From: a virus
Virus record (IMG/VR): IMGVR_UViG_3300031576_000013
Coordinates: 30,809 to 94,808 of that record
Strand: one strand, 5' to 3'
Length of the DNA: 64,000 nucleotides
Position 1 is the stretch's first letter. Each line of letters opens with the position of its first letter. The position numbers and the translations under genes were made by a program. Positions 12,873 to 22,146 of the stretch are shown in pieces. Below the pieces are notes generated by a model. That model was given only the letters and a program-made list of their open reading frames with translations. It searched no databases and had not been told where the DNA came from.

Positions 12873-13802
12873 TTAGACGCCGAAGACGCCAGTTGCCTTG
12901 ACCACTGCGGGCTCGTGCATGTACTTCACGTCAAGCCGCAGCGAGACGACCGTGATCACCTGACCCGCCGAGATGTCCTCGCCCATGCGGACGCGAACCT
13001 GACGATGGAACCCGAGGACGAAGTTCTTCGGGTCCGCAAGCAAGACGACGGTTTCGTTCGTACCGGCGCCGAGCGCGTCTGGAAACTCCGGGACGCCGAC
13101 GACGTCGTAGTCCTGGTACTTCGCGTCGGCTTGCGTTGCCAGCTGGATGTCGCCAAGGCTCGTCGCGCGGTTCGCGAGAGAGTCCTTGTAGTCGACTTTT
13201 GCCTGACGGTTCGTGAAGTAGGTGAGCGGCCCGGTCGAGAACTCGTCGGGCAGCGTCTTCAGCATGTCGCGGAGCACGTTCTTGGAGAGCGTGACACCGC
13301 CAGCCACAACGACGTTCGTGACTGCGTGCTTGATGAAACCGTCGAGTACCGCGAGGAGCGCGTCCGCCGACAGGGTGTCACCTTGCGCGATCAGGAAGTC
13401 CACGTCGCGAGCCACGGCTTCCGCCAGGGTCTCTGTGATCGTGTCCTTGTACGAACCGCGCTCGATCTGATCCTCGAGCACCTCGTCCGAGATCCGAACC
13501 TCGGCCTTCACGAGCTTTGCGTCGAGCTCGATGAAGCTGAGATCGGGCCTTGAACGCTGCGCCACCGCGAGGGCCTCGTTCTCCACGCCCGGCTTGAGCA
13601 CGCGCGAGCCGAAACGATGCTTGTCGCGTCGCTCCTTCGGACTCGCCATCGGTGTGACCATGATCCGCTTCATCAGTTCTGCGGATTTGATCATCACTCG
13701 GAAGAAGCGATCCGCCTGCCTCGGAACGAGCAAGCCACCGGCGGCAAGGCCGGCTGTGTCGAGATCTGCCTTTTGCAGCAAGACCCTGTTGTCGGTTGGC
13801 AT
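12873..13802 (-). CDS. Major capsid protein (HK97 fold, P2/XkdG-like)
   Basis: GGLLVPRQADRF, VRISDEVLEDQIE, LIAQGD, DGFIK, DPKNFVLG. Confidence 0.92.
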   Translation of the reverse strand: MPTDNRVLLQKADLDTAGLAAGGLLVPRQADRFFRVMIKSAELMKRIMVTPMASPKERRDKHRFGSRVLKPGVENEALAVAQRSRPDLSFIELDAKLVKAEVRISDEVLEDQIERGSYKDTITETLAEAVARDVDFLIAQGDTLSADALLAVLDGFIKHAVTNVVVAGGVTLSKNVLRDMLKTLPDEFSTGPLTYFTNRQAKVDYKDSLANRATSLGDIQLATQADAKYQDYDVVGVPEFPDALGAGTNETVVLLADPKNFVLGFHRQVRVRMGEDISAGQVITVVSLRLDVKYMHEPAVVKATGVFGV

Positions 13803-13876: not shown

Positions 13877-15133
13877 TTACGCGTTGTAGTCAAGAGGGAA
13901 AAGTCGGGATTCCGAAGACCCGTTCATTTCGGGCGAAGTGACACGATCGCCGGGTCGTGCTTCGGCCTTGGTAAGCGCCTGGCGAAGATCGCCGTTCGAC
14001 TTTTTGAGCGTGGCAAGTTCGGAATTGAGCGGTTCGACTGCCTTCGCCACGGCTTCGTTGATCATGCGTTCGGCTTCGCTGGCACTGATGCCCGGCTCTT
14101 TCTTTGCAGTTGCGGAGGGGTATTTCGAAGCGAGTCCCATGAGCAGCGTGTGGATCGCTTTCAGCTCACGCATTTCCTTTGCCGACGGCGCATCCATGCT
14201 CTTCACGCGGTTGGCAAGAGACAGCGCGCGTTCTGCGGCTTCGGTCAAAATACGCGACATACGACCCGCGCGCTTTTCGACGACCGAGTCATCGAGGGCG
14301 CCCAGAATTGCGCCGATCAGTTGCTGGAGCGAATCCATGTCGGTCGCGTCGATCATCACGCCCCCACGAGGGAACACGCCGTCGAGCTTCTTCGCGAGTT
14401 CGGTGATTGCTTCCTGCGTTGGCGCATCGGCGCTCGTGCTGGCCGACGCAAGCGCCTTCGCCACTTCCTCGATGTCGGCGCCGAGAGTCGCGCCGCTTTG
14501 TGTCGAATCCGGTTCTGGCTTTACCGGCGGTGGAGTCACCGTTTCGGTGCTCGTCGAAGCCGCATCCGATTCAGTCTTCGACATCGCTGCCGGCGCAGGG
14601 TACTTCTCTTTCACACCGGCGATCAACTTCCCGATCGCGGCGATCTCGGCGAGCAGCTTCCCGAAGTCACCTTCAGGCATTTTCTCGCCGCCGGCCTCTT
14701 TCAGCTTGTTGATCACCGAGGTCAAGCGCTCGAGCCCTTCGGTGAGCGTCGTCAACGCGACGGCGTCTTCCATCTTCGCCGAGTCCATCGCGTGAGTTGC
14801 GTCGTGTTCGTTTTTCGCGATGACGGCTGGATACGCATCTTCGATCTTACTCAGGCTGATCGAAACCTCGTGTGCTTCGTCGACGAGCGCTTTCTGTGTT
14901 GCCTCGTTTGCGTCCTTCAACTTGGTCACGATCGAGGTCAGACGCTCCAGGTTCTCAGCCAGCGTGGTAACGGTCTGAGAAACTGCTTTTTCAGTTAGCA
15001 TGGAATTTTCTCCTTCGCGCTTTCTCAAAAGGAAACGTCGTTTGTTCGCGGCTCGATCAACCAAGGAAACCTCCTCGATCTCGAAATCACGTAGACGTGA
15101 GACTGACGGTTTCGTTTTGGATGTCAAGTTCAT
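13877..15133 (-). CDS. Scaffold protein with N-terminal protease strand (EVSLVDRAAN) and three helical repeats
   Basis: Upstream of capsid; coiled-coil and acidic; three L.E..ER..S...K.K...YP repeats; probable internal start GAAGGAG-8 nt-ATG at 15001. Confidence 0.8.
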   Translation of the reverse strand: MNLTSKTKPSVSRLRDFEIEEVSLVDRAANKRRFLLRKREGENSMLTEKAVSQTVTTLAENLERLTSIVTKLKDANEATQKALVDEAHEVSISLSKIEDAYPAVIAKNEHDATHAMDSAKMEDAVALTTLTEGLERLTSVINKLKEAGGEKMPEGDFGKLLAEIAAIGKLIAGVKEKYPAPAAMSKTESDAASTSTETVTPPPVKPEPDSTQSGATLGADIEEVAKALASASTSADAPTQEAITELAKKLDGVFPRGGVMIDATDMDSLQQLIGAILGALDDSVVEKRAGRMSRILTEAAERALSLANRVKSMDAPSAKEMRELKAIHTLLMGLASKYPSATAKKEPGISASEAERMINEAVAKAVEPLNSELATLKKSNGDLRQALTKAEARPGDRVTSPEMNGSSESRLFPLDYNA

Positions 15134-15180
15134 TGATCTCGACGACTTCCTGTTAGCTTACCGCGCCTTGATGCGCGGTT

Positions 15181-18100
15181 TCAAGTAACAAATGGCGCGG
15201 CCAAAATCGAGTAGACCGGATCCGCCTCCTTGATCGCGGTTCCACCTATCGACCATCCGGTAAATTCCCCCCGTTTTACGGCTTCCCACAGCTCGTCGTC
15301 GACGATTCGTGCCGCAAGCAACCAAGTACCTTTTTTTACTGGCTGCTCTGCAACCGTGAAGTCTAGCGGTGCGAGATACGATTCGAGGATCTTTACGCGA
15401 CCATCAATCAATTTTCGGTGCATCAAACCGATATGGCCGTAGCGCTCCATGAACCCATGCGCTGCTTTGCGAATCTCGTCGGAGGAATAAACGTCGTTCT
15501 GCGCGTCGACGGTCTCGGGTTCGAGAACGATTCCCAAGACGTAACGCTCCTCCTTCGCGGTTTCTTCGGCCTTGAACAGCTTGACCGCGTGTGTCCAGGG
15601 GCGAAGCTCCAGTTTTGAAACCGGCGTCGACGAGGATGTCGCTTCTTTCTCGACGATCTTTTCGTAGTCGCGTCGAAGCGCGTCGCAGATTCGATGGGCG
15701 GCTTCTTCGTCGTGGCCTCGCGTCTTTTGATCGGCTACGCAAGCCTCGAAATTAGCGAAGCCGGCGAAGGGTTTTTCGATCTCGACAGAAACCTTCGCTT
15801 GCAATTGACATCCGAGATCCCAGAGCGGGGGAGGCGGTTCGGAAGCGCGCTTCTTGATTTCGTCGGGGTTGAGCATCGCGACGACTTCGTTGACCGTCAT
15901 CGGTGCCTCGTCGGTGACATCGATCACCGTTGGGGTGAATCCCGTGATCTTCCACTTGCCGGCTGTCATGCGGTTGAAGAGCACCTCCGTCACTTCGATG
16001 CGTAGAACATCGCCCGATTCGGCCTTCACCTTGCTGTTGAAGGATTTGCCCGCCGGAGCATATTTTTTCCCGGCGAGCTCGATCAAGTTGGGCCAGTTGC
16101 CTTGTTCCTTCTCGGGAATTGGTCCGAAGGCGTAGAAATAGTTGAAGACGCCCGGCGAATCCTTGACCGGGTGCTTGTCGTAGACGATTCCGCGCACCTC
16201 GCGAATCAGCTTGATCTTCGCCCAACCGTCGCTTTCGCCTCCAAGAGAGTAGGTCGCATTCGCGGATTTGAGCATCGCGCCTTCGGAGCCTGGCGAGGCG
16301 GCTGCCTTCGCGATCAACGAGTCCAGGCTCTCATGCGTTCTCGCTGTGCCCAGCGCCGGTACGAGTTTGATGCGGCTGCTTTGACGCTTGTTGAGGAACG
16401 CTTCCAGCAAACGGCGGCGTTCGGCTTGATCTTTTTGCGTGATGTTTCCCTCGTCGGGCAAATACAGCGCGTCGAAAATTTGTAGTTGGACGTTTGCGTC
16501 GTCGACTACTCCGGTCCCTCGGAACCTGGCCAAGTCCCTGCGGGGCGTGGCGGCGCCGTCGACGAACTCCATGAATTCTGCATCGAGCACGAATGGCCCA
16601 GGGAGTTTTGCCAGCTCGGCCGTGACGCCGGGCCAGTTCTTCATGTAGTTGCGCTGCTCGGTTTTCCGCGAAAAGAACTCTTCGGTGATAATGAAAACGC
16701 GGTCGCCATCTTTCTGAAGGGCGACGCGAAAACCGTTCAGTTTCGGTTCGACGAGGATTCCGCTGTCGAGCAACGCGCCGGTTGCGAAGTCTTCGTGCAG
16801 CCGATCGAGCTCACCACCACGAAACTCGTTCGTCTTTCGGGCTGCGACCTTCATAGGCTTGAAGACCGCGAGCGGCTTCAGCTCCTTCCGATCCCCACCT
16901 TTGTCGTCGGCGTCCTTGATCTTTCGCGGATCCCAAATCTGGACGTCCTCGATCACCGTCCCGTCTTGTAGAGAGACGTCGCGCACCTCGTGCGCCTTTG
17001 TGATCTTCTCACCGGGGACAGCGCGTGAAGGTTGTTTTCCGCGCTCCCATTGCCACAAATCACCGGCTTCCTCTTCGGCAACCAGCACAAATACCCCGTC
17101 ATCGGAGACATCCGCTAGATCGCCTCCGCGTACACGGATCTTCTTGAACTGGCGTTGGTCATCTAGAAATTCGATCTTGCCCCTTGACAGAATTCGCATC
17201 TGCGACGGCGTATTCTTCGAGGGATTGAATTCAACGCCGTGGACCTTTTCGCCGGGCGGCGCATCCCCTTCATAGGCAAGCAGCTTGTCGGCCTCCACGT
17301 TCGTGAGCGCACGGCGAATCACTGCGATCTTGTCGTTCTCGAAGGGGTCGCCTTCGAGTTGAAAATCCTCGATCTCATTCTCGCCGCGCTTGATGAACAG
17401 GTGAAACACCTGCGAGGAAGGCGCGGCACGGATCACGACCTGGCCCTTGAACCGTTGCCACGTCAGCGTGTAGGGCGCTGCCTTCAATTGCTTGAGCAGT
17501 CGCGTAGCGTTTTCCGTAGCTATGGTTGCCGCGATCCGGTCCATAGCTTCTTCCACGGTCCGCGCCTCGACGATCTCCGGCGCGATGTCGGCTGAAGGCC
17601 AAAACTTCTTGGTCTTCAAGGTCAGTCGGAAATCGCGGTTGATCTGTACGGTCTCAGCCGTCACGAGATGAGCTTCGATCAATGCGTTGCGGGTCGCTTC
17701 GACCTCTGATGGCTTATCCTTTTCCCAGTAACGAAATTCAGGCGGAATCGCGTTCTTGATTCCGAGCGGAAGCGCGGATCGGCCCTTCGGAGGGAGTGTC
17801 TTCGTTGCAATCGCGCGGCGCCGCAGAACGCTGGGCGTCAGATCCTTGTTGAACATCGCAACCCAGAAAGCTTCGCCCTCCCGGGTGCGCCGGCCCGTCT
17901 CGACTTCTTCTTCGGACGCGTCCCCTCGGCCCACGAGTAATCTAAAAGTCAGCAGCCCATGAAATTTTTGATCGCCTTCGACGGCGTACTCGGCAAAGAA
18001 CGGCTTGAGAATCAGGTGTGTGACTTGCGGGCGTGCGATTCGAACGATCACGCCTTCCTCCTCGGCGGTTGCGCCCACTTCGCCCGCCTCGAACTTGCGC

Positions 18101-19725
18101 CCTTCGATTTCGAGCCAAATCGGCGGCTGTAGGGACTTCACGGCGGCGAACACGCGATTCGGCGCGTTCATTGGTTTATTCCAGTACGAGCCCTCCATGT
18201 TGAAGGTGACTGCGAGTCGTTTGCCTTCAGGTACGGTGTCTACATCAGGCACTTTTCCTGCGCGCTGGATCGCAAGCGTGAAACCCGTGAGGAAATCCTC
18301 GCCGGTCTTGACACGGAAATCTCCGTGAACCGACCGACCTCTGAAATGACTCTGGAATACGGCCGCGCGGGGTTCTTCCTTTTCGGGATAGATCAGGATT
18401 GGGTTCTGCTGCTTCTCGGCGTCTTCGTCGCGCATATCGACGACGCGTTTTTCGGCGACGGGATGGACGACGAGATCGTAGAGATCTACGTAGCTCGTGT
18501 ATGGACCGCAGCCACCGGTATCTGGATCGGAGTCGTCATGGAATTGAACTCGCTGCGAAATCTCCGGCGGTAGCATCCGACCGAGCCTGAACTTCAAAAC
18601 TTGCAGTGTCTTCTCATCAAGTGGTCCGTCGATGAGCACGTCGACGTCGTTCTTCGTTTCGCCGTTGTTCACGATCGAACCGACTAATCGAACGACCGGT
18701 GCGCGAATCAGGAAGGGCTTCTCGAAGTGTTTGAGAACTTCTTCGAGTTTGAGTGGCGGGTATTCGCCCGTCGATCCCGGATGGATCGGAGCATATCGAT
18801 CGGTCTTGCCCGCCTTCGAAATATCATCGGTTTCTTTGGTACGTGCCACGCCTGAAGGTCCAATCACGAGGGGCTTCCTGCGGCGAAGCCGACGCAGTTC
18901 GGCTTCGATTCCGAGTGGGTCTTCCACCTTGTCGACCAGCGCGCGAGCTTCGCGCGTCAGCTCGTCGTCAAAGGGGTGTTTCAAATCGCGCCGTGTGAAT
19001 TCTTCGATCATGAACGCTTCAGCGTTCACCAGATCTTCGCGGCCAACGCCTTCCGCCGACAGCTTGTCGTTACCAGCGAAAAGGCTTGCGAACGCGGCGT
19101 GCAATTCCCTGTCGAGCCGCTTGAGTTTTGCGTCATCGAAAGCCTTCAGGTTGCGAGGCGTGATCTCCGTCAGGTCGAACGTTGCGTGTTGACCCGGAAC
19201 CGTGTCCAGATCTGCCGTGGTCAGATCGCCCTCACCTTTTGCGACCGCCTCTTCTTCGAGATCGATCTCGGGGCCGTATCGCCGCCCGGGCGGTGTCTTC
19301 TTCAGCTCGATCGGAGGATCGAAAGCCCGAACCAGCTCCATCGGGATGTAGAACACCGGCTTGACCGGTTCGAACTCGGCCAGCGAGAACTTGTCGATCC
19401 CCTCACGCAGCTCCTTCGGGACGTCGTCGAGCGACGCGAACTCCTGCGGCTCTCGTAGAACCACGATCGCCCAGGCGAAGGTCGCCTTGGCCTCTGTCGG
19501 CTCGATCTCGTTTAGCAAGATCTGCGCTTCTCCGCTGCGTCCCTCTTGCTTGCGTCGAGACAGGACGCCTGCGCTCTTGTCCTCTTGAAGCCGTGCGACG
19601 AGCATTGGCGGGTCCGGCATCTTCAATACCGGCAGTGGGCCTGCCGGCATTTCGAACTTGCGCTGCTCTTCTGGGTTCCCCGGCAAGGGAACGACCGCCT
19701 CAACGTGGGCGTTCGGGGTCGACAT
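15181..19725 (-). CDS. Polyprotein: ASCH-like + NTase-like + LigD phosphoesterase-like + ATP-dependent DNA ligase + XkdF-like head maturation protease
   Basis: LVGS-x8-NDVDV; FQSHFRGRSVHGDFR; ligase motifs EPKLNGFR, LDAEF, IFDALY, EGAMLK, WAKIK; C-terminal GIVLEP..DAQND..EIRKAAH.F..H..ESY..GTW..GEFTGWSIGG. Confidence 0.85.
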   Translation of the reverse strand: MSTPNAHVEAVVPLPGNPEEQRKFEMPAGPLPVLKMPDPPMLVARLQEDKSAGVLSRRKQEGRSGEAQILLNEIEPTEAKATFAWAIVVLREPQEFASLDDVPKELREGIDKFSLAEFEPVKPVFYIPMELVRAFDPPIELKKTPPGRRYGPEIDLEEEAVAKGEGDLTTADLDTVPGQHATFDLTEITPRNLKAFDDAKLKRLDRELHAAFASLFAGNDKLSAEGVGREDLVNAEAFMIEEFTRRDLKHPFDDELTREARALVDKVEDPLGIEAELRRLRRRKPLVIGPSGVARTKETDDISKAGKTDRYAPIHPGSTGEYPPLKLEEVLKHFEKPFLIRAPVVRLVGSIVNNGETKNDVDVLIDGPLDEKTLQVLKFRLGRMLPPEISQRVQFHDDSDPDTGGCGPYTSYVDLYDLVVHPVAEKRVVDMRDEDAEKQQNPILIYPEKEEPRAAVFQSHFRGRSVHGDFRVKTGEDFLTGFTLAIQRAGKVPDVDTVPEGKRLAVTFNMEGSYWNKPMNAPNRVFAAVKSLQPPIWLEIEGRKFEAGEVGATAEEEGVIVRIARPQVTHLILKPFFAEYAVEGDQKFHGLLTFRLLVGRGDASEEEVETGRRTREGEAFWVAMFNKDLTPSVLRRRAIATKTLPPKGRSALPLGIKNAIPPEFRYWEKDKPSEVEATRNALIEAHLVTAETVQINRDFRLTLKTKKFWPSADIAPEIVEARTVEEAMDRIAATIATENATRLLKQLKAAPYTLTWQRFKGQVVIRAAPSSQVFHLFIKRGENEIEDFQLEGDPFENDKIAVIRRALTNVEADKLLAYEGDAPPGEKVHGVEFNPSKNTPSQMRILSRGKIEFLDDQRQFKKIRVRGGDLADVSDDGVFVLVAEEEAGDLWQWERGKQPSRAVPGEKITKAHEVRDVSLQDGTVIEDVQIWDPRKIKDADDKGGDRKELKPLAVFKPMKVAARKTNEFRGGELDRLHEDFATGALLDSGILVEPKLNGFRVALQKDGDRVFIITEEFFSRKTEQRNYMKNWPGVTAELAKLPGPFVLDAEFMEFVDGAATPRRDLARFRGTGVVDDANVQLQIFDALYLPDEGNITQKDQAERRRLLEAFLNKRQSSRIKLVPALGTARTHESLDSLIAKAAASPGSEGAMLKSANATYSLGGESDGWAKIKLIREVRGIVYDKHPVKDSPGVFNYFYAFGPIPEKEQGNWPNLIELAGKKYAPAGKSFNSKVKAESGDVLRIEVTEVLFNRMTAGKWKITGFTPTVIDVTDEAPMTVNEVVAMLNPDEIKKRASEPPPPLWDLGCQLQAKVSVEIEKPFAGFANFEACVADQKTRGHDEEAAHRICDALRRDYEKIVEKEATSSSTPVSKLELRPWTHAVKLFKAEETAKEERYVLGIVLEPETVDAQNDVYSSDEIRKAAHGFMERYGHIGLMHRKLIDGRVKILESYLAPLDFTVAEQPVKKGTWLLAARIVDDELWEAVKRGEFTGWSIGGTAIKEADPVYSILAAPFVT
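19668..19682 (-). repeat. Dispersed 15-bp motif, exact copy
   Basis: Near the 5' end of the polyprotein gene. Confidence 0.9.
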
Positions 19726-20107: not shown

Positions 20108-20362
20108 CTACGTCAGCGTGATCAAACCGGTTTTCAGCTTCAATGCCACGCGGATGCCTTCGCCGTCTCTGGAGATTATCGCGTCAACTTTTCCCAGGCA
20201 CTCTGGGCATACAACCATCGCGACCCCACCGCCGTATCTGACGGTCACTTGTGTCTCCAGCACGCTCACCCGTTTGCACGCACGACACGCACCGACTCCC
20301 AGCGCTGCTGCCTTTTGCGCAGCTACAAAATCCGCGTACCCGGCCGGCCGATCCCCCGTCAT
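20108..20362 (-). CDS. Small zinc-finger protein
   Basis: CRAC...CPEC; ATGA overlap with the portal stop. Confidence 0.55.
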   Translation of the reverse strand: MTGDRPAGYADFVAAQKAAALGVGACRACKRVSVLETQVTVRYGGGVAMVVCPECLGKVDAIISRDGEGIRVALKLKTGLITLT

Positions 20363-22146
20363 TTTTCAGGTATCTCCTCGCCGCCAGTTCCTATTCCGGC
20401 TAACCGTTTATCATCGCCAGCTTCCCTGCGCCCCTGTGCGTGCCCGTTTGGCTCCTGGCGATGTTCGGCCCGGCCTTCCGAGGCGATTTGACTTGTCAAA
20501 GCTCGAATCCTTCCAGCCACGCGCTCCCCCTCTTCTTCTGGATTCCTTGATGGGGAACCTTTTCGAGCTTCCTGAAGGGTCAACTTGAAGGGCTGTTGTG
20601 TCCACGGATCTGTCAAAACTGGCAGTTCGCGGTTGAACACGTCGGTCGCTAGCGCGCGGCCCTCAGCTGGTGTGAGAACGCCTGCGTCGGAGAGCGTAGC
20701 TACGATCTCGGCCAGCACTTCGGGATCTTTTGTCGTCGGAGAGTTGGACTCGAATTTCCAGAAGGAGATGTGAAGTTCAGGCAGTAACTTTCTATTTATC
20801 ACTTCGTCGAACTGGTTTCGCAGCGGGGTGAAGACTTGATCTTCAGCTAGACGCAATGCGGCAAAAGCCGTGGCGCGATTGATCGCCCGGTCGCGCCCCA
20901 CCAAAATTCGTGGCAATCGGAAGCTCGACCCGATTTTTTCCCAGTTGCCCTCGTCGTAGTTTTGAAACAATGCATCTTGCTGCTGCGCTTCGCGTAGCGG
21001 GACGAACTTCATCGACGGGACGATTCCAGACGTACCTCCGGTCGATTTTTGGCCTTCGGCTTCGAGGACAAGAATCTTGTGGAAGTTTTTTCGTCCTTTG
21101 ATGTTGCTCTCGATGAACTCCTCGATGCGCGGCACAACCCCTTTAGCAAGCCGTCCGCCAGCGACGAGCAGCGCAAGCGGAGGGACGGTCTTGCTCTGGA
21201 AATAACTGAGGTTCACCTCGTCCAGTTCCCGGGAACCCAGAACAGCGGGTAGATTGCCGATCCATTGAGGGACTCCGTAAGTGGAACCAGGCGTCGGGAT
21301 TGCGAAGTGCAAAATTTCGTTGGCGGGTGCGTCCAGTGGCGGCTTGTCGGGATCGGCTTCGAGTGCTGCCGGCGACGCATAAATCTTGCCTGTTGCTCGC
21401 GAGACGGTGCGTGGGTCGCCGAATTCTTTGAAATACGCCTTGATCTTGCCCTGAATCGGATCGATCTCGGCGAACTTGCGAAAGAATCGGCGTTGAACGA
21501 CTTCCGTCGTCGAGATGCGTGTGGTTGGAATGCGTTCTTTTGTCTCAACAGGGATCGGATCGAGGGGCAGCAAACGCATCGTCACCGACGGTGCGAGCAC
21601 CAACCGCGCCGGCATTATTCTGTTGTCGCGTAGGATTTCCCAATATGCGTTTCCAGTCGTCAGCAAGTCTCGACGTGTTCGAGAGCGCAGCTCGACGAAG
21701 GAGTAATCGGGGCAACAGACGGCAAAGAAGGTACGCAGGCGATTGATTTCGATGCGCGCAACTCTGCGTAATTCTTCGAGTTTTGCACGAACGGCTTCGG
21801 AATCCGGCTCGACGAACGGCTCGCGGCGTTCCTCGCTTAGAACCAACCGTTCGACGATCATCTCGTCCCGGATATCGGCTTCGGCACCAGGCCGTGTGAG
21901 GTCAATTCCGGCAGTGTATTTGTGGCCGAACGCGTCGACGTTCGTGACGATCGCCTCAATATGCTGAGACAGCGACGACGAAAGCTCGTAGAGCTGAAGC
22001 AGCGTTTCGGGCGCGTACTTCGGTTCGAGGACGCCGGTTACGGCCTTTCCTTTTTGAGTGAGCGCTGTGAGCCACTCCACGGTCGAGACGGGGGCGTCCC
22101 TAAAGGTCGCCTTTCCAACGACGTTTTTCTCTTTCTTTTTCGGCAC
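20359..22146 (-). CDS. Portal protein (PBSX/XkdE-like)
   Basis: DLLTTGNAYWEI.R, FKEFGDPR, NEILHF, YGVPQW, FRLP..LVG...NRATA. Confidence 0.93.
   Translation of the reverse strand: MPKKKEKNVVGKATFRDAPVSTVEWLTALTQKGKAVTGVLEPKYAPETLLQLYELSSSLSQHIEAIVTNVDAFGHKYTAGIDLTRPGAEADIRDEMIVERLVLSEERREPFVEPDSEAVRAKLEELRRVARIEINRLRTFFAVCCPDYSFVELRSRTRRDLLTTGNAYWEILRDNRIMPARLVLAPSVTMRLLPLDPIPVETKERIPTTRISTTEVVQRRFFRKFAEIDPIQGKIKAYFKEFGDPRTVSRATGKIYASPAALEADPDKPPLDAPANEILHFAIPTPGSTYGVPQWIGNLPAVLGSRELDEVNLSYFQSKTVPPLALLVAGGRLAKGVVPRIEEFIESNIKGRKNFHKILVLEAEGQKSTGGTSGIVPSMKFVPLREAQQQDALFQNYDEGNWEKIGSSFRLPRILVGRDRAINRATAFAALRLAEDQVFTPLRNQFDEVINRKLLPELHISFWKFESNSPTTKDPEVLAEIVATLSDAGVLTPAEGRALATDVFNRELPVLTDPWTQQPFKLTLQEARKGSPSRNPEEEGERVAGRIRALTSQIASEGRAEHRQEPNGHAQGRREAGDDKRLAGIGTGGEEIPEK

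What the first reader, a model, noticed from the sequence alone, without database searches (positions are those of the whole stretch)
15030..15550. Head maturation protease apparently split between two genes
Seen: the polyprotein's protease ends just after the G-W-S-I-G-G serine motif. The strand that normally completes this fold (L..EVSLVDxxAN) is instead at the N-terminus of the next gene, the scaffold (RLRDFEIEEVSLVDRAANKRRFL), in a different frame 47 bp downstream. Known: HK97-type proteases have this strand after the Ser motif, and, as I recall, XkdF has it permuted to the N-terminus. Inference: the protease is completed in trans by the scaffold, so it is active only when cargo and scaffold co-assemble.
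Basis: partly seen in the sequence, partly recalled or inferred. Interest (0 to 1): 0.72.

Follow-up and report, generated by a model that had tools for sequence, protein, structure and literature searches.

The report
Phage head protease split onto scaffold
In this uncultivated phage the enzyme that trims the head during assembly ends a 1514-residue DNA-repair cargo protein but lacks a small beta-hairpin that related proteases carry in their own chain; the hairpin opens the next gene (the scaffold), as in nearly all related phages, and probably hooks enzyme and cargo onto the scaffold.

Summary
The 1514-aa polyprotein (15181-19725, minus strand) ends with an XkdF-type protease domain, 19 residues after its serine motif. 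Forty-seven bases on, in another frame, the scaffold gene opens with the hairpin motif.

That hairpin is N-terminal in classical XkdF proteins and follows the serine in HK97 gp4. One PHROG profile (3017) covers both window pieces.

The split is real and conserved:
- It occurs in 64 of 69 loci found through the hairpin.
- It occurs in 77 of 80 loci found through the protease alone.
- It also occurs in cultured Pakpunavirus phages.
- Ten natural fusions (protease-hairpin-scaffold) exist.

A conserved in-frame ribosome site and ATG just after the hairpin predict a second, hairpin-less scaffold.

Evidence that the hairpin docks on the protease is indirect. An AlphaFold model of B. subtilis XkdF puts it in a confident strand. 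Covariation links it weakly to the tail after the serine. A model of a natural fusion left it disordered.

So a tether is likely, and activation in trans is unproven. This scan has reached the same reading on other phage genomes. I found no paper describing it.

The parts
15181..19725 (-). Cargo polyprotein, 1514 aa, directly downstream of the portal gene; ATP-dependent DNA ligase domain plus C-terminal protease domain
   Evidence: ORF list; Pfam PF01068 at aa 988-1172 and PF14550 at aa 1388-1499
16210..16764 (-). ATP-dependent DNA ligase adenylation domain (aa 988-1172) inside the polyprotein
   Evidence: PF01068, E 2e-18, 67 bits against a cut-off of 26; the same ligase+protease pairing occurs in 6 of 6 long relatives scanned
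15229..15564 (-). XkdF-type (Peptidase_S78_2) head protease core, aa 1388-1499. The columns holding His1436 (15418-15420) and Ser1492 (15250-15252) are invariant in the alignments.
   Evidence: PF14550, 103 bits; invariant columns of A3 and A7 include the window row; it is the only XkdF domain in the 94.8-kb record
15184..15240 (-). Tail after the serine motif (19 aa), the proposed pairing partner of the hairpin
   Evidence: In the XkdF model the equivalent segment is a 12-residue strand. Its columns covary with hairpin columns more than core columns do.
15134..15180 (-). 47-nt gap between the two genes, with stops in both frames and a weakly placed AGGAAG 12 nt before the ATG
   Evidence: Three-frame translations; sequence
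13877..15133 (-). Long scaffold form, 418 aa: hairpin followed by a helical, low-complexity scaffold
   Evidence: ORF; PHROG 3017 and 13975; homologues share mainly the N-terminal hairpin
15020..15097 (-). Conserved beta-hairpin element (scaffold aa 13-38)
   Evidence: Invariant residues R13 L14 D16 V22 L24 V25 D26 R27 A28 A29 N30 R32 K38 in A1. All synonymous codons are used at these residues in 76 distinct versions.
15008..15016 (-). Internal Shine-Dalgarno sequence (GAAGGAGAA) inside the scaffold ORF, 6 nt before the internal ATG
   Evidence: Sequence; conserved at the nucleotide level in relatives
13877..15001 (-). Nested short scaffold, 374 aa, starting at Met45 (ATG 14999-15001) and lacking the hairpin
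   Evidence: The database's own gene call for this locus is the 374-aa form (P0001). A Met lies 12-15 residues after the motif in most of the 64 of 70 relatives that have one within 25 residues.
12873..13802 (-). Major capsid protein, 309 aa, next gene after the scaffold
   Evidence: PHROG 1623, E 1.5e-76, and PHROG 10 major head protein
20359..22146 (-). Portal protein, upstream of the polyprotein
   Evidence: PF04860, E 9.5e-22; PHROG 12

Best explanation
This is a three-product head-assembly module. Product 1 is a cargo polyprotein whose last domain is an XkdF-type serine protease core. Product 2 is a long scaffold form whose first about 40 residues are the hairpin that sister proteases carry in their own chain. 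Product 3 is a more strongly initiated, nested short scaffold without the hairpin.

Proposed mechanism: the hairpin of the long scaffold pairs with the strand that follows the catalytic serine of the protease core. This ties the protease and the DNA-repair enzymes fused to it non-covalently to a scaffold molecule, and that scaffold co-assembles with the short scaffold inside the procapsid. The long-to-short ratio would then set how many protease-cargo copies enter each head. The protease then digests the scaffold and releases the cargo.

Shown here: the homology of the pieces, the obligatory gene linkage, the natural fusions and the conserved internal start. Inferred: the physical docking, its site, the stoichiometry and any effect on catalysis.
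For: 1. One profile covers both genes. PHROG 3017 positions 4-43 match the scaffold N-terminus and positions 37-154 match the polyprotein C-terminus.
2. The hairpin occurs next to this protease in three topologies. It is N-terminal in classical XkdF and invariant there. It follows the serine in HK97 gp4 and in 10 natural protease-hairpin-scaffold fusions. It opens the next gene here.
3. Linkage holds in both directions. Of 69 loci found through the hairpin, 64 have the protease core ending the ORF just upstream. Of 80 loci found through protease patterns only, 77 have the hairpin opening the next gene, a median of 108 nt after the domain end. Two of the other three have inserts, and the third most likely has an insert longer than the flank.
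4. The same layout occurs in cultured phages PAK_P1, Limnohabitans DC31 and Curvibacter P26059A.
5. In the AlphaFold model of B. subtilis XkdF, residues 3-16 form a strand with pLDDT 75-83, separated from the core by a linker with pLDDT below 50. A 12-residue strand follows the serine directly.
6. Columns of the post-serine tail covary with the hairpin core more than protease-core columns do (0.116 against 0.084, p 0.003). Two control regions show no such excess, and 0 of 60 shuffled pairings reach the observed value.
7. The internal start is selected at the nucleotide level. A Shine-Dalgarno core is present in 53 of 59 distinct loci against 19 expected. AGG/AGA make up 32 of 51 Arg codons there against 55 of 889 elsewhere, p 3e-23.
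8. The record holds no other XkdF domain and no match to the S78, ClpP or S49 protease families.
Against: - The AlphaFold model of a natural fusion (P0120) left the hairpin region at pLDDT about 40 with no strand, while the core scored 87-97. So the core is predicted to fold without it. Only 10 alignment rows covered the hairpin, which limits this result.
- The covariation is modest and could partly reflect shared history of adjacent DNA.
- No S78 or XkdF structure is solved.
- No experiment bears on any step.
Confidence: 0.6

Rival explanations
1. Strict trans-activation. The protease core is catalytically dead until the scaffold hairpin completes its fold, so cleavage can begin only inside an assembling procapsid.
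For: In the XkdF model the hairpin segment lies next to a strand that begins at the catalytic serine. The hairpin lies within the HK97-type S78 Pfam domain model: a weak hit on fusion protein P0077, aa 267-316, covers profile positions 95-147 of 165. The hairpin is far more conserved than the rest of the scaffold.
Against: The core is modelled with pLDDT 87-97 without the hairpin. The Pfam XkdF model (PF14550) is complete without it. Nothing here measures activity.
Confidence: 0.3
2. The hairpin has a job unrelated to the protease, for example binding the portal or capsid protein or nucleating scaffold oligomers. It sits beside the protease only because an ancestral protease-scaffold gene was cut at a linker.
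For: AlphaFold did not dock it in the fused homologue. Scaffold N-termini bind other partners in some phages (general knowledge).
Against: It accompanies this protease family in three different topologies, including the extreme N-terminus of classical XkdF, where it is separated from the scaffold part by the whole protease. It also occurs in HK97 gp4, which has no scaffold part. It covaries with the post-serine tail of the protease and not with control regions.
Confidence: 0.15
3. The hairpin is a pseudo-substrate or inhibitor that keeps the protease quiet until assembly, or it is simply the protease's cleavage site on the scaffold.
For: It lies at the boundary of the part that would be removed to give a free scaffold, and protease and scaffold must meet anyway.
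Against: In classical XkdF it begins within the first 10 residues of the protein, so nothing is released by cutting there. It is modelled as a strand of the fold rather than as a loop in the active site.
Confidence: 0.08
4. Artefact: a sequencing frameshift or a programmed frameshift or readthrough hides what is really one fused gene.
For: Ten natural fusions exist. One of them, P0050, looks frameshifted downstream of the hairpin.
Against: Stops lie in both frames in the gap. The two-gene form recurs in 64 + 77 loci with gaps of varied length and frame, sometimes with a homing endonuclease or a 1-4 kb insert between the genes.
Confidence: 0.02

Closest known systems
Classical XkdF-type protease-scaffold proteins (Pfam PF14550, PHROG 3017; B. 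subtilis PBSX XkdF, phage PBP180 ORF10, Bacillus phage B83 gp09)
   Same: Same protease core, same hairpin motif and a helical scaffold part; the gene lies between portal and major capsid protein.
   Different: There, all three parts are one chain in the order hairpin-protease-scaffold. Here the core ends an upstream cargo protein, and the hairpin is joined directly to the scaffold in the next gene.
HK97 gp4 and the S78 prohead proteases (PF04586)
   Same: Serine motif followed about 28 residues later by the same kind of strand. A profile of the fusions aligns collinearly with gp4 residues 99-152.
   Different: gp4 is one chain with no scaffold part. The window protein does not match PF04586.
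Pakpunavirus head genes (PAK_P1 gp3 and gp4)
   Same: Identical two-gene layout: a 157-aa protease ending just after the serine motif, then a gene opening with a hairpin variant. 223 Pseudomonas phage records match the protease core.
   Different: There is no cargo on the protease, and the hairpin variant has a two-residue insertion. In RefSeq gp3 is labelled DNA methyltransferase and gp4 hypothetical, so the layout appears unrecognised.
Polyvalent proteins of phages (Iyer et al. 2017, PMC5512222)
   Same: Large multidomain proteins encoded among virion genes. [quoted passage not shown]
   Different: In the passages shown by a term search of that paper, nothing mentions the missing hairpin, its place on the scaffold gene or the nested scaffold.
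Lambda C/Nu3-type nested protease-scaffold genes
   Same: A long product carrying the protease-linked part and a shorter in-frame scaffold made from an internal start (textbook knowledge; the internal start here comes).
   Different: In lambda the long form carries the whole protease covalently. Here it carries only a hairpin of about 26 residues.
T4 gp21 prohead protease (PDB 5JBL) and the herpesvirus assemblin fold
   Same: Models of homologues superpose on it. For XkdF, Z 9.3, rmsd 2.6 over 112 residues. For the fused homologue, Foldseek probability 0.97.
   Different: 12-15% sequence identity. T4 loads cargo through a cleavable N-terminal targeting peptide, not through fusion to the protease (general knowledge).

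Membership tests
Peptidase_S78_2 / XkdF (PF14550) | Match to the family profile above the curated cut-off | tested here: met
   103.3 bits against a cut-off of 24, profile positions 7-124 of 126
Peptidase_S78_2 / XkdF (PF14550) | Conserved His and Ser columns of the family | tested here: met
   The H and S columns are invariant across 84 and 18 sequences including the window row
Classical XkdF protease-scaffold protein (PHROG 3017) | Hairpin, protease core and scaffold in one polypeptide | tested here: not met
   Profile positions 4-43 and 37-154 fall on two different genes in different frames
HK97-type prohead protease S78 (PF04586) | Match to the family profile | tested here: not met
   No hit at E<=0.1 for the polyprotein or in the whole record
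Assemblin / T4 gp21 fold | Structural superposition of the core on a solved member | tested here: inconclusive
   Met for models of two homologues.
Polyvalent phage proteins (Iyer et al. 2017) | Several unrelated enzymatic domains in one protein encoded among virion genes, with the assemblin-like peptidase C-terminal | tested here: met
   Ligase plus protease domains between the portal and scaffold genes; the paper's statement is
Nested scaffold genes (lambda C/Nu3 type) | In-frame internal ribosome site and start giving a shorter scaffold | tested here: met
   Sequence signal present and selected at the nucleotide level in relatives. Expression of two products cannot be tested with these tools.
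Split enzyme completed in trans | Physical binding of the two pieces, and dependence of activity on it | not testable with these tools
   No multimer prediction and no coordinates were available. Only indirect support exists, with one negative cis model.

The most novel reading that the evidence does not exclude
Strand complementation between a scaffold hairpin and an incomplete protease core is a general, modular cargo-loading and timing device of tailed phages. On this reading, any enzyme fused in front of the core (ligase, methylase, anti-defence domains) is drawn into the head by the hairpin-bearing scaffold. The dose is set by the ratio of long to short scaffold. The protease becomes competent only once docked.
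Probability: 0.3. Interest if true: 0.8.

Novelty: new variant of a known kind. Interest (0 to 1): 0.6.

Why it matters
How phages place a defined, small number of protease and cargo molecules inside a head is understood for only a few models, such as the T4 targeting peptides, the HK97 protease tail and lambda C/Nu3. This layout suggests a different solution: a non-covalent link made by a piece of the enzyme's own fold, combined with two scaffold products from one gene.

It appears in hundreds of uncultivated phages and in the therapeutic-candidate Pakpunavirus group, where the genes are currently mislabelled. It would also explain why the assemblin-like peptidase always ends polyvalent proteins. 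If docking is confirmed, it offers a simple handle for loading foreign proteins into phage heads, and a natural case of a split, assembly-gated protease.

Tried and rejected
- A first combined alignment for folding (A2) stacked the scaffolds on the protease C-terminus and was discarded.
- The AlphaFold model of the natural fusion P0120 did not dock the hairpin. I treat this as inconclusive, because only 10 rows covered that region.
- The wide structural search on that model was swamped by helical-bundle matches to the scaffold part.
- A viral scan seeded with HK97 gp4 returned only near-identical copies. No diverse S78 profile could be built, and the profile comparison rests on one sequence (E 0.063).
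- PDB sequence searches found no relative of the protease core, XkdF or HK97 gp4.
- tblastn of the whole scaffold against cultured phages found nothing. The Pakpunavirus parallels were found through the protease instead.
- Eight literature searches found no description of the split.
- Frameshift or readthrough fusion was rejected because of the stops in both frames.
- A substitute hairpin inside the polyprotein was rejected.
- A complex of the two window pieces was not attempted, because a joined chain is not a sequence of the window.
Full report
**1. What is there**

The head module runs on the minus strand in this order:
- portal (20359-22146; PF04860);
- a 1514-aa ORF (15181-19725);
- a 418-aa ORF (13877-15133);
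- the major capsid protein (12873-13802; PHROG 1623).

The large ORF carries an ATP-dependent DNA ligase domain (aa 988-1172). Its last domain is an XkdF-type protease core (PF14550, aa 1388-1499, 103 bits, profile positions 7-124 of 126). The serine motif GWSIGG is at aa 1490-1495, and the protein ends 19 residues later.

After a 47-nt gap with stops in both frames, the next gene starts in another frame. It has the motif EVSLVDRAAN at aa 21-30.

**2. The two pieces belong to one ancestral unit**

PHROG 3017, a 402-position 'head maturation protease' profile, aligns scaffold aa 13-52 to its positions 4-43. It aligns polyprotein aa 1378-1499 to its positions 37-154.

Classical members of this family put everything in one chain in the order hairpin, linker, protease, scaffold. 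Examples are B. subtilis XkdF, PBP180 ORF10, Bacillus phage B83 and Lactococcus phage 28201. In an alignment of seven of them (identity to the first sequence down to 32%) the hairpin residues are invariant.

HK97 gp4 has the serine motif followed 28 residues later by the same kind of strand. A profile of the natural fusions aligns collinearly with gp4 residues 99-152. That match is weak (E 0.063), because the target is a single sequence. Pfam S78 gives a matching weak hit on one fusion protein (P0077, aa 267-316, profile 95-147 of 165).

**3. The split is real, old and nearly obligatory**

- Scaffold homologues (330-520 aa) share little beyond an almost invariant hairpin, and none has a protease domain.
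- A scan of viral contigs with hairpin patterns gave 80 loci. Of the 69 with the strict motif, 64 have an XkdF core ending the ORF immediately upstream, usually 2-30 aa before its stop. Those upstream ORFs range from 58 aa (cut off by a contig end) to 2099 aa. Three further loci have a 1.5-4.2 kb insert between the genes, and two are cut by the contig end.
- The reciprocal scan used protease patterns only. It gave 80 loci: 77 with the hairpin opening the next gene (median 108 nt after the domain end), 2 with inserts, and 1 most likely with an insert longer than the flank, since the same contig showed a 4.2-kb gap in the first scan.
- Among the best 150 of 5870 protease homologues in 1.8 billion representative proteins, the core is almost always at the extreme C-terminus of proteins of 132-2190 aa.
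- Ten proteins are natural fusions, with the core, a 22-60 residue linker, the hairpin and the scaffold in one chain. The hairpin is never N-terminal in this clade.
- Cultured phages share the two-gene form: PAK_P1 gp3/gp4, Limnohabitans DC31, and Curvibacter P26059A, which has a GIY-YIG endonuclease gene wedged between the two.
- At the conserved hairpin residues all synonymous codons are used (six for Ser, six for Arg). Selection therefore acts on the peptide.
- The window's polyprotein contains no second hairpin.
- The 94.8-kb record holds no other XkdF domain and no match to the S78, ClpP or S49 protease families.

**4. A nested short scaffold**

Directly after the hairpin the window has GAAGGAGAA followed 6 nt later by ATG (Met45, 14999-15001). 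The public gene call for this locus is the 374-aa form that starts there (P0001).

In 64 of 70 relatives a Met lies within 25 residues of the motif, in most cases 12-15 residues after it. In 59 distinct loci a Shine-Dalgarno core lies before that Met in 53, against 19.0 expected when synonymous codons are redrawn from each gene's own usage. Arg codons in the six codons before the Met are AGG/AGA in 32 of 51 cases, against 55 of 889 elsewhere in the same genes (Fisher p 3e-23).

This is nucleotide-level selection for an internal start. By contrast, the start of the long form has only AGGAAG at a poor 12-nt spacing. I infer a minor hairpin-bearing scaffold and a major hairpin-less one, as in lambda C/Nu3. 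The same scan's first-stage note e1-6042067 had proposed this, and the comparative test here supports it.

**5. Does the hairpin dock on the protease?**

Only indirect evidence could be obtained.

For:
- The AlphaFold2 model of B. subtilis XkdF (41-row alignment) gives residues 3-16 as one strand with pLDDT 83 and 75. The linker (26-47) is below 50 and the core (50-156) is at 74-87. A 12-residue strand (145-156) starts at the serine.
- A 14-residue strand isolated by a disordered linker must pair with the core, and the only partner of similar length is that post-serine strand.
- The model superposes on T4 gp21 (5JBL_B: Z 9.3, rmsd 2.6, 112 residues, model range 20-159).
- In 83 protease/hairpin pairs (effective number 54), columns of the post-serine tail covary with hairpin-core columns more than protease-core columns do (0.116 against 0.084, Mann-Whitney p 0.003). 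The equally variable N-terminal linker does not (p 0.26). The tail shows no excess against the linker after the hairpin (p 0.49). None of 60 shuffled pairings reaches the observed value.
- The strongest pair looks like a swap: tail position 119 is Arg when hairpin position 6 is hydrophobic, and hydrophobic when it is polar.

Against:
- In the model of the natural fusion P0120 the core scores 87-97. The hairpin region scores about 40 with no strand, and the post-serine segment is disordered.
- Only ten rows covered the hairpin in that alignment, so this is weak negative evidence. It still shows that the core can be modelled as a stable domain on its own.

**6. Reading**

The simplest account of the three topologies is as follows. 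An ancestral protease whose fold includes this hairpin was covalently tied to a scaffold. In this clade the chain was cut between the serine strand and the hairpin. The hairpin stayed on the scaffold, and the core became the C-terminal module of whatever cargo is to be packaged.

The hairpin then serves as a non-covalent tether, and the nested start supplies bulk scaffold. I give this about 0.6. I give about 0.3 to the stronger claim that the core is inactive until completed, which nothing here tests.

Cargo in relatives is most often a D12 DNA methylase or this ligase-containing array. One relative also carries an intein and a Tad3-like anti-Thoeris domain. This fits the 'polyvalent protein' concept of Iyer et al. 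[quoted passage not shown]

**7. Novelty**

The protease family, C-terminal peptidases on polyvalent proteins and nested scaffold genes are all known. I did not find the following in the searchable literature:
- the relocation of a fold element onto the scaffold gene;
- its near-universal linkage to the protease gene;
- its coupling to a conserved nested start.

Other follow-ups in this scan reached the same reading on other phage genomes. That shows the layout is common but is not independent evidence. I class it as a new variant of a known kind.

Noticed in passing
window 13877-15016 (minus strand): Internal ribosome site plus ATG right after the hairpin, predicting a hairpin-less scaffold. 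It is conserved at the nucleotide level in relatives: a Shine-Dalgarno core in 53 of 59 loci against 19 expected, and AGG Arg codons enriched with p 3e-23.
   Followed up: yes
L001:2983-3453 (PAK_P1 gp3) and many Pakpunavirus records: A 157-aa XkdF protease is annotated as 'DNA methyltransferase' in RefSeq and GenBank. The label was probably inherited from methylase-protease fusion proteins (PHROG 1530). The hairpin-scaffold gene gp4 is labelled 'hypothetical'.
   Followed up: partly
L003:5440-6045 (Curvibacter phage P26059A); also L042, L054, L058: A GIY-YIG homing endonuclease gene, or inserts of 1.5-4.2 kb, sit exactly between the protease gene and the hairpin-scaffold gene. The junction therefore tolerates insertions.
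   Followed up: partly
P0122, P0110, P0044, P0138, P0047, P0071: The pairing of a DNA ligase with a C-terminal XkdF protease recurs in 6 of 6 long relatives. P0122 also carries an intein (Hint plus LAGLIDADG) and a Tad3-like anti-Thoeris domain. P0071 carries a D12 methylase.
   Followed up: partly
P0054, P0078, P0083, P0157, P0163, P0167: In some relatives the protease core is not terminal but is followed by a conserved domain of about 130 aa of unknown function. None of them has the hairpin in cis, and their downstream genes could not be inspected.
   Followed up: no
P0077: One protein has two XkdF cores, with the hairpin directly after the first and another domain between them.
   Followed up: no
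window about 15640-15720 (polyprotein aa about 1336-1362): A short conserved segment with paired Cys residues precedes the protease core and recurs in relatives (P0032, P0054). Its function is unknown.
   Followed up: no
window 16726-19725 (polyprotein aa 1-1000): No Pfam family matches the first 1000 residues at E<=0.01. The nucleotidyltransferase and LigD-phosphoesterase-like domains proposed by a first-stage note (e1-6042051) were therefore not confirmed by this simple scan.
   Followed up: partly
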